Below are positions 2,287 to 58,125 of a stretch of DNA of 64,000 nt, piece after piece. The DNA comes from Escherichia phage 235Ecol030PP. Position 1 is the stretch's first letter, and each line of letters opens with the position of its first letter. Location: the sequence record PP355091.1; one strand, written 5' to 3'. Made by a program: the position numbers and the translations under genes. The notes below the pieces were generated by a model. The model saw only the letters and a list, made by a program, of their open reading frames with translations, was not told the origin of the DNA and did no database searches.

Positions 2287-2771
2287 TTTAATTTCCTGCA
2301 TTCAGTGATAAAGTTATTTAAATTTTGAGTATATTTCTTTTCATCAAAAATCTTTTGTTGTCTGCGTAAACGCCATGGCATTTCAATGAACACACACCAT
2401 ATTCCTGATAATATTGCTGTTGTCAAAATATTAACAAGTATGATTAAAAGAATCCAATCTCCCGTTCTGCCTACTGGACTTTCTCCAAAGAAGCAAAATA
2501 CAAATGATGTCACAGGAAGACTAATAATATACCACAGAATCATAATCTTATCTGTGAACCAATCAGCGTTCGTTAACTTAGCACGACCGTTTTGAATACA
2601 TACGAACTTATCATCTGTTATAATAGATGGCTTAGCTGCTTGATATCCCATTCTAAACTCCCTAATCAACAAATTTTTCATATCTTCGGAACAACCATTC
2701 CAGTCAACTCTATCAACTGGAATGCCATCATCCCCATCATCTAAATCATACCAGCGAGTTTTTAAAATCAT
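2283..2771 (-). CDS. small membrane protein, e.2-like, paralog family member
   Basis: hydrophobic segments; C-terminal motif NFITECRK; ATG at 2771 overlaps upstream stop (ATGA). Confidence 0.6.
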
Positions 2772-3130
2772 CTGATTTTCCTGCAATCACTCACAAACTC
2801 TTTCATTGCTTCATTTTCAATATAAGAAATGTAGCTATTATATTCCTTTAATTGTATTTTGTAATCTTTTTTTCTTTGCCAATTTATTTTAAAATTATCA
2901 TAATGAAAATATAACATGGTACCAAAGAATGAAAATAATGAAATAATTTTAGTATAGTGAAGTTCACTCCAAACTTCTATTATATTTACTGTGCCGTCAA
3001 TGTTTAAAATAAGACAGTCAATTAACAATCCAAAAAGACTACCCGCAAGAGCTGCAGCCAACGCCACAGCAAAAATTAAAAATGACTCAGGAAGCGAATA
3101 TTTGGCTTTATTTAGTTTTGGCTTTTGCAT
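2768..3130 (-). CDS. small membrane protein, e.3-like, paralog family member
   Basis: 120 aa; N-terminal TM helix; C-terminal motif EFVSDCRK. Confidence 0.6.
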   Translation of the reverse strand: MQKPKLNKAKYSLPESFLIFAVALAAALAGSLFGLLIDCLILNIDGTVNIIEVWSELHYTKIISLFSFFGTMLYFHYDNFKINWQRKKDYKIQLKEYNSYISYIENEAMKEFVSDCRKIR

Positions 3131-3504
3131 CGTGATTCCTTAACAAATTTCATAATTTCATTAAATTCATACTCAGCAAGTTTAAGCTGGTGTTCCTTTT
3201 TAATCTTTTTACACTGAGCTTTCCAATCGTGTACACGTTTACGATAATGTCTTCCTTGATACCAGTATCCTACCCAATTTACGGGTACTAATAAAAGTGG
3301 AACTACCAATGGAAGAATTAGCATTAACACAAGTATTTCGCCAGAATCAATATCAGTCATAACATCTAAAACACCTCCAATAATCAATAGAATTACAAAT
3401 GATATAAGTATAACAGGACCTATTAATACATCAGTAGAAATTATCTGGTGCTTTGATTCATACTTCAAAGGTTTACTTGGAAGGTATAGTGATGGTTTTG
3501 ACAT
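3112..3504 (-). CDS. small membrane protein, e.4-like, paralog family member
   Basis: ATG at 3504 (MSKPSLYLPSKPLKY); track ORF starts at TTG 3525; TM-rich; C-terminal motif KFVKESRCK. Confidence 0.6.
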   Translation of the reverse strand: MSKPSLYLPSKPLKYESKHQIISTDVLIGPVILISFVILLIIGGVLDVMTDIDSGEILVLMLILPLVVPLLLVPVNWVGYWYQGRHYRKRVHDWKAQCKKIKKEHQLKLAEYEFNEIMKFVKESRCKSQN

Positions 3505-4083
3505 ATTCTCTACATTCCTTAACAAATTTTTCTAATAATAAATCGCTTTCAAAATTGGGATTTTCCACGAATTTATCAAAAAGATCATCAACAATAGTTA
3601 AGATATTCTTTTTACTAAGAATACGCTTATTTTCATGCTTCGTTTCAGAATCAACTATAAGAGTAAAGAAATATTTCTTGCCCTGAAATTTTACAGTAGT
3701 ATCAATATAGAATAAATTTGACTTTTGTAAATTACGTTTAAACCATGCGTCGCTTAAACTATAAACGCCAAGATAATCATAATCGTCGTTTAAATAACAG
3801 ACCGTCCATTCAGGAGAAACAAAATCAGTAAATTCAACGTCAAAATCGCATATGTTAATAAATGAATTGATTCAATACTGTTAATAAGTATTCCAGGACG
3901 TATTAAAGACTTTTTACCTCTAGAAAATCTTCCAGAAAGACTTTCATCAGTTTCATATGAAGAACCCCAATAATAATTACGTCCTTCTGCCATACGTTTA
4001 AGAGCATTTAATAATTGGTCTGGAACATCAACCTGTCTTTGAAACTCTTCAAACATTGAATTGAAATCACTTTGCATTTTCAT
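3473..4083 (-). pseudogene. frameshift-interrupted ORF (e.5-like), 4th member of paralog family by C-terminal motif
   Basis: ATG 4083 frame open to 3790; a second frame with no ATG/GTG start runs 3871-3473 and ends EKFVKECREYVK; frames join with a 1-nt indel near 3855-3872. Confidence 0.45.
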
Positions 4084-4104
4084 TCCTATTTACTCCAAGT
4101 AATA

Positions 4105-4118
4105 GGGGCCGAAGCCCC
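4105..4118 (-). terminator. GC stem-loop with tetraloop downstream of 4125..4718 gene
   Basis: GGGGC-CGAA-GCCCC; same 20-nt hairpin recurs at 45073-45091. Confidence 0.4.
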
Positions 4119-4124
4119 TTATCA

Positions 4125-4718
4125 TTATTTCAGAGAATTAATGTATTCCTGAACATCGGCAGAGGTAGTTTCAACCCCAGAAATATTACCGTTAAAGGTT
4201 TCAACTCGAGCAAGAGTATCTTCAATATCAACCTTAGTCAGTGCTGCAATTTCAACTACATCATCAGCAGTACTAATTCCAAGGGCATTCGCGGCGCGAG
4301 TTTCACGGATATATTCCAATTTAACTGCAAGTTCTTGGCGAGCATCATCCAATTCAACTACTTTCTTAGCGATTTCAATTCGCATTTCAGCATAACCATC
4401 AGCTTTAGTAGTCAACTGCTCAGCTGTTCGACGATATAGTAAACCGAGTTTAGCATGCATTGTTACATCTTGACCTTCGGAAAGAAGCTTGCGAATTTCA
4501 CGCTCTTTTGATTCGGCTTGCTTATTCTTTTCGACAATAAGTTCACGAATACGCTTTTCTTCATTAATAGATTTAACGGAAGCAGTTTTTAGATCTTTAA
4601 TCTTATCAAGTAGTTTTGCTGCCGCAGCAGTATACTGTTCTTCAACAGATAGATTTTTAGCCATAGCAGAACCAAGTTTAGTGCGAATAAACTCAACAAT
4701 TTTCTTCAGTGTGTTCAT
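4125..4718 (-). CDS. coiled-coil protein (e.6-like), function unknown
   Basis: 197 aa, ATG start, K/E-rich heptad-like sequence. Confidence 0.7.
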
Positions 4719-5671: not shown

Positions 5672-6144
5672 TTATTTGATTTGTTTAGCAGACCAAATGC
5701 GGTCTTTAATAATTTTTTGGATGTCTTCAACATACTCAAGAGAATGAGCATGTGGGTTATCTTTAAAGCTATGAGCACGAGCTAGCTTTTGGCCTTCAGT
5801 TTTGATTACTAAAAGCTCTTTAAGGATAGCTTCATATTTGGAGATAATTCCTTTAACGATATTTTTTCTTGTGCGACTTTAGGATCTGCTTTAGGAGCAG
5901 GTTTACCCGAAGCCTTTGCAAAAGCAGCGCCAGTAGCAACTAAACTTTTCCAGGCCATACTAACTGCATTTCCCGTAAATCCTTCCGCTTTCATGTCGCG
6001 TGCGAACTGGAATCGTGATTCATCAGAAGCATCTTTGTAAGAATATTTACCCGCTGCAATGGCTGCTTTTGCGACAGCTTGAATTTCGGTGCTAGATGCT
6101 TCATTTAACACCGCTTCATTTAAAAATTGAGTATATGATTTCAT
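5672..6144 (-). pseudogene. CTS-bearing internal-protein-like gene interrupted by frameshift at A6 run
   Basis: ATG 6144, N-terminus MKSYTQFLNEAVLNEA; frame ends at 5809; a second frame continues plausibly to stop 5672 beside terminator; frames meet at fwd T6 run 5862-5867. Confidence 0.5.
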
Positions 6145-6898: not shown

Positions 6899-6974
6899 TG
6901 GTCGAGGCAGTAGGGATCGAACCTACGACCCAGGACTTAGAAGGTCCTTGCTCTTCCTTCTGAGCTATGCCCCG
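6899..6974 (-). tRNA. tRNA-Arg (anticodon UCU), CCA encoded
   Basis: cloverleaf read by hand; T-arm GTAGG-TTCGATC-CCTAC; anticodon loop CUUCUAA. Confidence 0.85.
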
Positions 6975-6977
6975 TAA

Positions 6978-7643
6978 TTAAAATTTCATTTTTCGACCTT
7001 TAAACCATCCTTCTGGAATTGGGTCAGTTTTCTTAATACGTTTAGAAACTTTTTCATCTAATGAATGAATCCACATCATACCAAATTGGGAATTCTTTTC
7101 GCCCTGTTGATGTTTATTTCTGGCGTGAGATTCTTTCATTTTATTAATAGTTTCAGGAGTATGATGCTTATTTAAAAATCTGCTATTATTTAAAAATTTT
7201 TCCCTGTATTCAGGAGTTGACCACAAGCGTTTAAATACATTTGAACCATGTTTACGATATTTTTCTTGAAGTAAAATATCATTTTTAAAACGTGACTTAA
7301 ACGATTTAGCTCCTTTTAAGCTAGCATCTTTCTTCTGGTTTAGCATCCCAGGAATATTTACATGATCCCATCCACCTTCACCACCAAGTTTTAAATTATA
7401 CACATCTGGTCTATTTAAAAACTCTTCTGTGACAATATTTTTCTCGGCTTCAAGCATAGATTCTTTATCGTCAAAGAACTCTAATATTTCTTTAGAAAAA
7501 TTTTCTATACCATACTTATCTTGGGCTCTTTTTAATAATTTACCAGAACCCATATATCCATCATCTAAATTTTCGGTAGAATGAGCGCCTATATAGATTT
7601 TATTATTAATTTTATTTGTTATTTTATAAATGTAATGGAACAT
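6978..7643 (-). mobile_element. segB: GIY-YIG homing endonuclease SegB within the tRNA cluster
   Basis: 221 aa; N-terminal YIYKITNKINNKIYIGAHS GIY-YIG motif; located between tRNA-Arg and tRNA-Ile as in T4. Confidence 0.85.
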
Positions 7644-7684
7644 AAATATCTCCTATTTCTAAGAGTATTTATGTTCTCAAAATA

Positions 7685-7756
7685 TGGCCCTGGGTGGAAT
7701 TGAACCACCATCTGGCGATTATGAGTCGCTTGCTTGAACCTTCCAGCTACAGGGCC
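7685..7756 (-). tRNA. tRNA-Ile (anticodon CAU; Met by anticodon alone)
   Basis: acceptor GGCCCTG/CAGGGCC, T-arm GGTGG-TTCAATT-CCACC, anticodon loop CUCAUAA. Confidence 0.8.
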
Positions 7757-7762
7757 TTGATA

Positions 7763-7835
7763 TGCTGATTGACGGAATCGAACCGCCGACGTCCTCATTA
7801 CAAGTGAGGTGCTCTACCTACTGAGCTAAATCAGC
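7763..7835 (-). tRNA. tRNA-Thr (anticodon UGU)
   Basis: D-arm GCTC-AGTAGGTA-GAGC, anticodon loop CUUGUAA, T-loop TTCGATT. Confidence 0.85.
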
Positions 7836-7842
7836 GAAATTA

Positions 7843-7929
7843 CGGAGGCGATAGGATTTGAACCTATGAGTCGCCGGAGCGACTGCCGGTTTTCAAGACC
7901 GGTGCATTAAACCACTCTGCCACGCCTCC
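7843..7929 (-). tRNA. tRNA-Ser (anticodon UGA), long variable arm
   Basis: acceptor GGAGGCG/CGCCTCC, anticodon loop CUUGAAA, T-loop TTCAAAT. Confidence 0.85.
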
Positions 7930-7931
7930 AG

Positions 7932-8005
7932 TCTCCGTGGCAGGATTTGAACCTACGACATTCTGCTCCCAAAGCAGACGCTCTACCAAACTGAGCTACA
8001 CGGAG
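7932..8005 (-). tRNA. tRNA-Pro (anticodon UGG)
   Basis: D-arm GCTC-AGTTTGGTA-GAGC, anticodon loop UUUGGGA. Confidence 0.85.
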
Positions 8006-8017
8006 TAAATTAAATTT

Positions 8018-8089
<72 letters not shown>

Positions 8090-8095
8090 AAACTT

Positions 8096-8182
8096 TGGTA
8101 CGAGAAGTGGGACTCGAACCCACAAGGAAATCATTCCGCAGCATTTTAAGTGCTGTGTCTTTACCAATTTGACCATTCTCGC
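8096..8182 (-). tRNA. tRNA-Leu (anticodon UAA), long variable arm, CCA encoded
   Basis: anticodon loop CUUAAAA, T-arm GTGGG-TTCGAGT-CCCAC, 3' ACCA. Confidence 0.85.
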
Positions 8183-8183
8183 G

Positions 8184-8256
8184 CTGGGAATAAAGGACTC
8201 GAACCTTTGCATCCTGGAATCAAAATCCAGTGCCTTACCAACTTGGCTAATTCCCA
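8184..8256 (-). tRNA. tRNA-Gln (anticodon UUG)
   Basis: acceptor TGGGAAT/ATTCCCA, anticodon loop UUUUGAU, T-loop TTCGAGT. Confidence 0.85.
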
Positions 8257-8342
8257 ATTATTAACAAAGGCTCTTTAGCAAGAACCCTTGATGATAGAGG
8301 GTATTAATCAGTGCGGTATGAGTTAATAATAACAAATAATTC

Positions 8343-57769: not shown

Positions 57770-57939
57770 TACATTTTGAACTTTTTAGTACGCGTAATAG
57801 GCATGCGTCGATTTTATACTGTTTCATTGTTTGAAGAGCAGTATCAAAACAGCATTAATGACACCAATTGGATTTCCACCCAAGTTTTTAAGCTTAACTA
57901 ATGATAGTTTCTCATTAACACCTATCATTACGATATGCA

Positions 57940-58125
57940 TCATTTTGTCGCCTGGTTTAACGTTTTATCTGTATCACCGCCAGAGGTGTATGTACAAAAT
58001 CTAAATCCAGGAAGCACGCTTTCTTCGCCGGCTTGAATAGCAAAAATTTGAGGTATTTTATGCTTAGGATTTAAGTTAACAACCGGCGCCGAAGCGCCGT
58101 CAAATAATTATGTAATAAGTTCCAT
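57940..58125 (-). pseudogene. decayed partial duplicate of the alt 5' end
   Basis: minus strand reads ATG GAA CTT ATT ACA TAA then in frame LFDGASAPVVNLNPKHKIPQIFAIQAGEESVLPGFRFCTYTSGGDTDKTLNQATK stop; alignable with alt codons 1-65. Confidence 0.6.
58084..58099 (-). terminator. GC stem-loop downstream of alt, inside the alt-remnant
   Basis: CGGCGC-CGAA-GCGCCG; no U-tract. Confidence 0.35.

What the first reader, a model, noticed from the sequence alone, without database searches (positions are those of the whole stretch)
3473..4083. The fourth paralog (e.5-like) is split by a 1-nt frameshift
The frame from ATG 4083 becomes low-complexity hydrophobic before its stop at 3790. A second frame with no ATG or GTG start carries plausible sequence from 3871 to 3473 and ends with the family motif. 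A single-base indel near 3855-3872 (a TTT run) would restore one ~203-aa ORF. Together with the 5672-6144 case this is either assembly error at short runs or real decay of accessory genes.
Basis: seen in the sequence. Interest (0 to 1): 0.5.

Follow-up and report, generated by a model that had tools for sequence, protein, structure and literature searches.

The report
Frameshifted e.5 gene in T4-like phage
A small T4-type phage gene of unknown function (e.5) is broken here by a two-base duplication seen in no related phage, which is either an ordinary recent loss of a dispensable gene or a sequencing error.

Summary
Window 3473-4083 (- strand) is the ortholog of T4 gene e.5, lying between e.6 and e.4, and it is split between two reading frames.

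The lesion is not a 1-nt indel in a T run. It is a 2-nt tandem duplication, ACATGC to ACATATGC, at 3850-3853, directly after codon 77. Translation from ATG 4083 then reads 20 hydrophobic out-of-frame residues and stops at 3790. The remaining 125 codons (3850-3473) have no usable start codon.

Removing the AT gives a 202-aa protein that is 100% identical to e.5 of phages L14 and JK38 and matches phrog_2607 end to end. In 640 of 643 phage records e.5 covers at least 80% of the query at one place, and every record inspected had it in one frame. None of the 114 records that match the lesion site carries the insertion. The 97-aa product is a singleton, WZX06382.1 of Escherichia phage 235Ecol030PP.

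No essential gene in the window is frameshifted. The only other private frameshift is an A7-to-A6 deletion in a dispensable internal-protein-like gene. I favour a real, very recent mutation (about 0.6) over an assembly error (about 0.35). Only the reads can decide.

The "fourth paralog" claim is not supported. e.5 shares only a roughly 10-aa C-terminal motif with e.2-e.4. This is an ordinary finding of low interest.

The parts
3790..4083 (-). Truncated e.5 ORF as it stands (97 aa plus stop). It is deposited as hypothetical protein WZX06382.1 of Escherichia phage 235Ecol030PP.
3853..4083 (-). Native-frame part of e.5, codons 1-77 (MKMQ...IHLLT). It is 100% identical to the Phaginator and L14 orthologs.
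3850..3853 (-). ATAT, the tandem AT duplication. Relatives have a single AT (ACATGC), so this is a +2 frameshift.
3790..3852 (-). Out-of-frame tail of 20 hydrophobic codons (YAILTLNLLILFLLNGRSVI) plus the TAA stop.
3473..3850 (-). Stranded 3' part of e.5: codons 78-202 plus stop, in the other frame. It has no ATG, GTG or TTG before a GTG at 3568. The sequence is still perfectly e.5-like.
3112..3504 (-). e.4 (130 aa, membrane protein-like). Its ATG lies 32 nt inside the 3' end of e.5. In this genome, ribosomes translating e.5 stop 286 nt upstream of it.
4104..4119 (-). GGGGCUUCGGCCCC hairpin between e.6 and e.5, annotated as a terminator in relatives. It sits just upstream of the e.5 Shine-Dalgarno sequence (GGAG).

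Best explanation
The window comes from a Tequatrovirus (T4-like) phage, Escherichia phage 235Ecol030PP. Coordinates 3473-4083 (- strand) hold its ortholog of T4 gene e.5, a 202-aa soluble protein of unknown function found only in Tequatrovirus and Mosigvirus. A tandem duplication of the dinucleotide AT directly after codon 77 shifts the frame. The ribosome then adds 20 hydrophobic out-of-frame residues and terminates at 3790. The conserved C-terminal 125 residues are not made, because that frame has no start codon and no slippery site. The result is a loss-of-function allele. I consider it most likely a real and very recent mutation in a dispensable accessory gene, of the classical short-duplication or slippage frameshift type, and not a sequencing artefact. 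Shown here: the lesion, its uniqueness, and the intact state in relatives. Inferred: that it exists in the phage DNA and that the product is non-functional.
For: Nature of the lesion:
- The alignment with four orthologs shows a single 2-nt gap and nothing else structural.
- The restored ORF is 609 nt and 202 aa. It is 100% identical to e.5 of L14 and JK38 and matches phrog_2607 positions 2-203 of 203.

The lost part matters:
- Blocks such as FYIDT, KKYxFTLIVDSET and ECREYVK are invariant down to the 46%-identical Mosigvirus homolog.

The lesion is private and young:
- None of 114 records matching the 68-nt site has it; the best match is 66 of 68 bases.
- The 97-aa product is a singleton among about 15 billion proteins.
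- Downstream of the lesion, differences from relatives are still mostly synonymous, and there are no amino-acid differences from L14.

Assembly quality:
- 112 ORFs of the relative Phaginator map onto the 64-kb window. Beyond e.5, the only other private frame split is in a dispensable internal-protein-like gene (the shared alt remnant and spurious ORFs over tRNA genes also split), and no structural or replication gene is split.
- All 8 tRNAs are intact.
- Sibling phages of the same naming series were sequenced with Illumina Nextera and assembled with SPAdes (PMC11510089). A 2-nt insertion outside any homopolymer is atypical for that platform.

Dispensability and precedent:
- Shigella phage A2 carries an in-frame e.5-e.4 fusion that lacks the last roughly 80 aa of e.5.
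- Other truncated e.5 products exist in public assemblies (P0030, P0032, P0033).
- T4's own e.2 is interrupted.
Against: No reads are available, so an assembly or consensus error cannot be excluded. There are two private 'fresh' frameshifts in 64 kb (this one and A7 to A6 at about 5862-5867), each on an otherwise nearly unchanged background. That pattern is also what errors would look like. The sequencing platform of this particular phage is not documented: the paper covers sibling phages only, and the Pharokka-style locus tag hints at a different pipeline. About 40% of the window by my rough count is non-essential DNA, so both lesions falling in dispensable genes is only weak evidence (roughly P = 0.15 under random placement). 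No independent assembly carries the same allele.
Confidence: 0.6

Rival explanations
1. Sequencing or assembly artefact. The phage has an intact 609-nt e.5, and the extra AT (like the missing A at about 5862-5867) was introduced by basecalling, consensus or polishing. Glucosyl-hydroxymethylcytosine DNA of T4-like phages is hard to sequence on some platforms.
For: The restored protein is 100% identical to a known e.5, and the allele is seen in one record only. The second private frameshift lies in an A7 homopolymer, a typical error context. Apart from that base and one substitution, the gene is identical to NiC89 over 531 nt. The platform used for this genome is unknown.
Against: No frameshift occurs in any of the long essential genes of the window, and the tRNAs are intact, so the assembly is not generally indel-prone. 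The e.5 lesion is a dinucleotide duplication outside any homopolymer, which is not a common error type for Illumina or homopolymer-limited platforms. Sibling phages were sequenced with Illumina and assembled with SPAdes.
Confidence: 0.35
2. Functional two-frame arrangement. Either programmed ribosomal frameshifting (-1 or +2) joins the two parts, or the downstream part is a separate gene with an unconventional start.
For: The two frames overlap by 82 nt (3871-3790), so a frameshift there could in principle give a full-length product.
Against: There is no X XXY YYZ slippery heptamer anywhere in the 97-codon ORF. The downstream frame has no ATG, GTG or TTG before codon 172 of the intact protein. 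The arrangement is not conserved: every ortholog examined is a single ORF. No relative carries the insertion.
Confidence: 0.03

Closest known systems
Bacteriophage T4 gene e.5 (NP_049741.1; phrog_2607; Pfam PF26876 as precomputed for its homologs)
   Same: Same position between e.6 and e.4, with the 32-nt overlap onto the e.4 start. After removal of 2 nt, the protein is 94.6% identical to e.5 of a T4 record (OL964735.1) and 100% identical to L14 and JK38 e.5. It matches the profile end to end.
   Different: The ORF is interrupted after codon 77 by an AT duplication, so only a 97-aa product with a foreign hydrophobic tail can be made.
Spontaneous frameshift mutations by short tandem duplication or slippage (Streisinger-type, classically described in T4 rII and the neighbouring lysozyme gene e; from my own knowledge)
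   Same: A 2-nt tandem duplication (AT to ATAT) here, and a 1-nt loss in an A7 run in the companion gene.
   Different: There is no experimental pedigree. Whether the change is in the phage or only in the assembly is untested.
Other natural disruptions in the T4 e-cluster: T4 e.2 (102 aa against 162 aa), Shigella phage A2 e.5-e.4 fusion, and PP01 lacking e.2
   Same: Accessory genes of the same cluster are lost, truncated or fused in viable, sequenced phages.
   Different: Those events are deletions, recombinations or multiple lesions. Here a single fresh 2-nt insertion sits in otherwise pristine sequence.

Membership tests
T4 e.5 family (phrog_2607 / PF26876) | Full-length sequence match to the family profile | tested here: met
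   The restored 202-aa protein matches phrog_2607 positions 2-203 of 203 with E=1.4e-109. Its homologs carry PF26876. The local Pfam copy lacks that model, so it returned no hit.
T4 e.5 family (phrog_2607 / PF26876) | Synteny: between e.6 and e.4, with the 3' end overlapping the e.4 start | tested here: met
   Same gene order as in T4, PP01, SH7, Phaginator, L14 and NiC89.
T4 e.5 family (phrog_2607 / PF26876) | One uninterrupted ORF of about 199-204 codons | tested here: not met
   The span is 611 nt and the frame is broken after codon 77. It is therefore a disrupted allele, a pseudogene candidate, of the family.
   BLASTP of e.5 against e.2, e.3 and e.4 gives best E values of 0.6-2.2 in a 5-protein database. 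hhalign probabilities are 0.5-2.5%, with 10-12 aligned columns. The genes fall in separate PHROGs.
   The maximum 19-aa Kyte-Doolittle mean is 1.12 for e.5, against 2.37-3.03 for e.2-e.4.
   The motif is present in all four genes. It coincides with the Shine-Dalgarno and start region of the next gene, so it does not prove common descent of the proteins.
Programmed -1 ribosomal frameshift | Slippery heptamer X XXY YYZ in the overlap of the two frames | tested here: not met
   No such heptamer occurs anywhere in the ORF.
Programmed -1 ribosomal frameshift | Two-frame arrangement conserved in relatives | tested here: not met
   640 of 643 records cover at least 80% of e.5 at one place, and all 60 sampled rows were a single HSP. 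None of 114 records has the insertion.

The most novel reading that the evidence does not exclude
The short C-terminal motif shared by e.2-e.5 (F-[VI]-x-E-C-R) is encoded by repeated DNA: AAATTTGTTAAGGAAT in e.5 and e.4, and TGCAGGAAA in e.3 and e.2. This DNA also forms the ribosome-binding region of the next gene. It could act as a built-in junction for homologous recombination, letting T4-like phages precisely add, delete or fuse e-cluster genes while keeping translational coupling. PP01 has lost e.2 exactly at TGCAGGAAA. The e.5 frameshift itself would then be only one symptom of fast turnover in this cassette array.
Probability: 0.12. Interest if true: 0.35.

Novelty: already known. Interest (0 to 1): 0.1.

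Why it matters
It matters little. The result flags a probable pseudogene, or a base-calling error, in a deposited phage genome intended for applied use. It corrects the annotation: WZX06382.1 is a truncated e.5, not a distinct 97-aa protein. It also adds one more case suggesting that e.5 is dispensable for growth of T4-like phages. It does not open a new question. e.5 remains of unknown function, and its family is extremely narrow.

Tried and rejected
- Independent copies of the frameshift allele. There was no exact hit in IMG/VR; the wild-type control pattern found only one contig, so this is a weak test. No encoding contig is on record.
- Literature on e.5. Three full-text searches returned nothing relevant (one failed on term length).
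- Coupling of e.4 translation to e.5. The RNA around the e.4 start has no stable structure (z = 0.54), so I do not claim a polar effect.
- The alt-like frame splits at 57780-58125 as evidence for genome-specific decay. I rejected this because that arrangement is shared by about 487 relatives.
- Frame 'splits' at 8011-8261. These lie in spurious ORFs over tRNA genes, and the tRNAs are intact.

Full report
**What the region is.** The window is part of a Tequatrovirus (T4-like) genome. On the minus strand, the first 5 kb carry lysozyme e (1320-1808), nudE (1846-2301), e.2 (2283-2771), e.3 (2768-3130), e.4 (3112-3504), the finding (3473-4083) and e.6 (4125-4718). A 1-kb query around the finding matches 502 phage records at 90-98% identity. 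The exact 97-aa product of ORF 3790-4083 is on record once, as WZX06382.1, a hypothetical protein of Escherichia phage 235Ecol030PP. It forms a singleton cluster among about 15 billion proteins.

**Checking the observation.** The ORF from ATG 4083 ends at 3790, and its last 20 residues are hydrophobic. A second frame is open from 3871 to 3473 and ends ...EKFVKECREYVKTITIPSK. That frame's only start codon is a GTG 31 codons before the stop.

**What the lesion is.**
- Orthologs in PP01, vB_Eco-B1.1, SH7, Phaginator, T4, L14 and NiC89 are single ORFs of 609 nt, or 615 nt in SH7.
- The DNA alignment shows one structural difference inside the gene. Relatives read TTAAC--ATGCGA, and the window reads TTAACATATGCGA.
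- The event is therefore a tandem duplication of AT at window 3850-3853, directly after codon 77. It is not a 1-nt indel in the T run at 3855-3872.
- Deleting the two bases gives a 202-aa protein that is 100% identical to e.5 of L14 and JK38 and matches phrog_2607 end to end (E=1.4e-109).

**Is the lost part important?** The C-terminal 125 residues contain the best-conserved blocks of the family. FYIDT, KKYxFTLIVDSET and ECREYVK are invariant even in the 46%-identical Mosigvirus homolog. The truncated product is therefore very probably inactive, though this is inference.

**How unusual is the allele?**
- In 640 of 643 phage records, e.5 covers at least 80% of the query at one place. All 60 evenly sampled rows were single HSPs.
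- Of 114 records matching the 68 nt around the lesion, none has the insertion; the best match is 66 of 68.
- IMG/VR has no copy. The wild-type control pattern found only one contig there, so that test is weak.
- Downstream of the lesion, differences from relatives are still mainly synonymous: 5-15 synonymous against 1-7 non-synonymous codons, and none against L14.
- The lesion is therefore either very young or not real.

**Real mutation or artefact?** I scanned the whole window for frame splits against the ORFs of phage Phaginator.
- 112 ORFs map onto the window. Apart from spurious ORFs over tRNA genes, the only coding splits are e.5, the gene at 5675-6144, and an alt-paralog remnant at 57780-58125.
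- The alt remnant is shared with about 487 relatives, so it is old.
- The 5675-6144 gene carries an internal-protein-type N-terminus, MKSYTQFLNEAVLNEA. Over 531 nt it differs from phage NiC89 only by a 1-nt deletion in an A run (A7 to A6, about 5862-5867) and one substitution. It is a second private frameshift.
- No structural or replication gene is frameshifted, and all 8 tRNAs are intact. The assembly is therefore not generally indel-prone.
- Sibling phages of the same naming series were sequenced with Illumina Nextera and assembled with SPAdes (PMC11510089). This particular phage is not mentioned in that paper.
- A dinucleotide duplication outside any homopolymer is not a typical platform error. 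An A7-to-A6 change could be either a mutation or an error.
- About 40% of the window is non-essential by my rough count. Both lesions falling in dispensable genes is therefore only weak support for reality.
- My estimates are about 0.6 for a real mutation, 0.35 for an artefact, and 0.03 for any functional two-frame reading. The last is disfavoured because there is no slippery heptamer and the arrangement is not conserved.

**Precedent for decay in this cluster.**
- T4's own e.2 contains two in-frame stops within a locally shifted stretch. It is annotated as 102 aa, against 162 aa in other phages.
- Shigella phage A2 has an in-frame fusion of e.5 (residues 1 to about 122) with e.4.
- PP01 lacks e.2 altogether. 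Its junction reads as e.3-type sequence on the left and e.2-type on the right of a shared TGCAGGAAA.
- Public assemblies hold other truncated e.5 products (P0030, P0032, P0033). They also hold a chimera with a foreign N-terminus joined at about residue 80 (P0028).
- e.5 is therefore dispensable and repeatedly remodelled.

**The paralog claim.** e.5 shows no significant similarity to e.2, e.3 or e.4.
- BLASTP E values are 0.6 or more.
- hhalign probabilities are 2.5% or less.
- The four genes belong to different PHROGs.
- e.5 has no transmembrane-like segment, unlike e.2-e.4.
- The shared C-terminal motif F-[VI]-x-[ED]-[CS]-R is real. At the DNA level it coincides with the Shine-Dalgarno and start region of the next, overlapping gene (AAATTTGTTAAGGAAT in e.5 and e.4; TGCAGGAAA in e.3 and e.2). 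It is not evidence that the proteins are paralogs.

**Function of e.5.** It remains unknown.
- The family is confined to Tequatrovirus and Mosigvirus, with 14 clusters in 5.8 billion proteins and one full-length representative among 1.84 billion.
- The structure model is of low confidence (pLDDT 61.7).

**Consequences for e.4.** The RNA around the e.4 start shows no stable structure, so I do not predict a polar effect.

**Verdict.** This is a genuine feature of the deposited sequence and was correctly spotted, but its molecular detail was mis-described. Biologically it is ordinary: a private, fresh loss-of-function frameshift, or a consensus error, in a dispensable ORFan gene.

Noticed in passing
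window 5675-6144 (- strand), lesion at about 5862-5867: An internal-protein-like gene (N-terminus MKSYTQFLNEAVLNEA, 157 aa in relatives) is split by a private 1-nt deletion in an A run (A7 to A6). Apart from this and one substitution, it is identical to phage NiC89 over 531 nt.
   Followed up: yes
L007 (T4 NC_000866) 1973-2461, corresponding to window e.2 at 2283-2771: T4's own e.2 is interrupted. The frame that aligns with the 162-aa e.2 of other phages has two stop codons within a locally divergent, double-frameshift-like stretch. T4 annotates only 102 aa.
   Followed up: partly
L009 (Shigella phage A2) 1207-1944: A natural in-frame fusion protein: e.5 residues 1 to about 122 joined to e.4 from about residue 6 (245 aa). 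This phage lacks the e.5 C-terminus and a separate e.4.
   Followed up: partly
window 2283-3525 gene junctions; L001 (PP01) 2960-3070: The 3' ends of e.5 and e.4 share an identical 16-mer, AAATTTGTTAAGGAAT. The 3' ends of e.3 and e.2 share TGCAGGAAA. Each lies just upstream of the next gene's ATG. PP01 lacks e.2, and its junction switches from e.3-type to e.2-type sequence exactly at TGCAGGAAA, as expected for deletion by recombination between these short repeats.
   Followed up: partly
window 57780-58125 (- strand): This is a degraded remnant, in three frames with an early stop, of a second Alt-like ADP-ribosyltransferase gene that is full length (685 aa) in phage Phaginator. The remnant is shared at up to 99.8% identity by about 487 Tequatrovirus records, so it is an old pseudogene remnant and not specific to this genome.
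   Followed up: partly
proteins P0028, P0030, P0032, P0033 (public assemblies): These are other broken or chimeric e.5 products. P0032 shifts frame after residue 42. P0030 (Mosigvirus type) shifts after about residue 131. P0028 has an unrelated 54-aa N-terminus joined to e.5 from about residue 80, close to the break point in this window, which hints at a two-module protein.
   Followed up: no
protein cluster of e.5: The 90%-identity cluster that holds e.5 (864 members) also contains 130-aa e.4 proteins, which are unrelated in sequence. This is probably a clustering artefact caused by fused or overlapping gene calls such as the A2-type e.5-e.4 fusion.
   Followed up: no
window 6978-7643 and 6899-8256: A GIY-YIG segB-like homing endonuclease gene sits inside the tRNA cluster (8 tRNAs: Arg, Met, Thr, Ser, Pro, Gly, Leu, Gln). 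The tRNA set and order differ from Phaginator, L14 and NiC89, which carry Tyr, Asn or His tRNAs.
   Followed up: no
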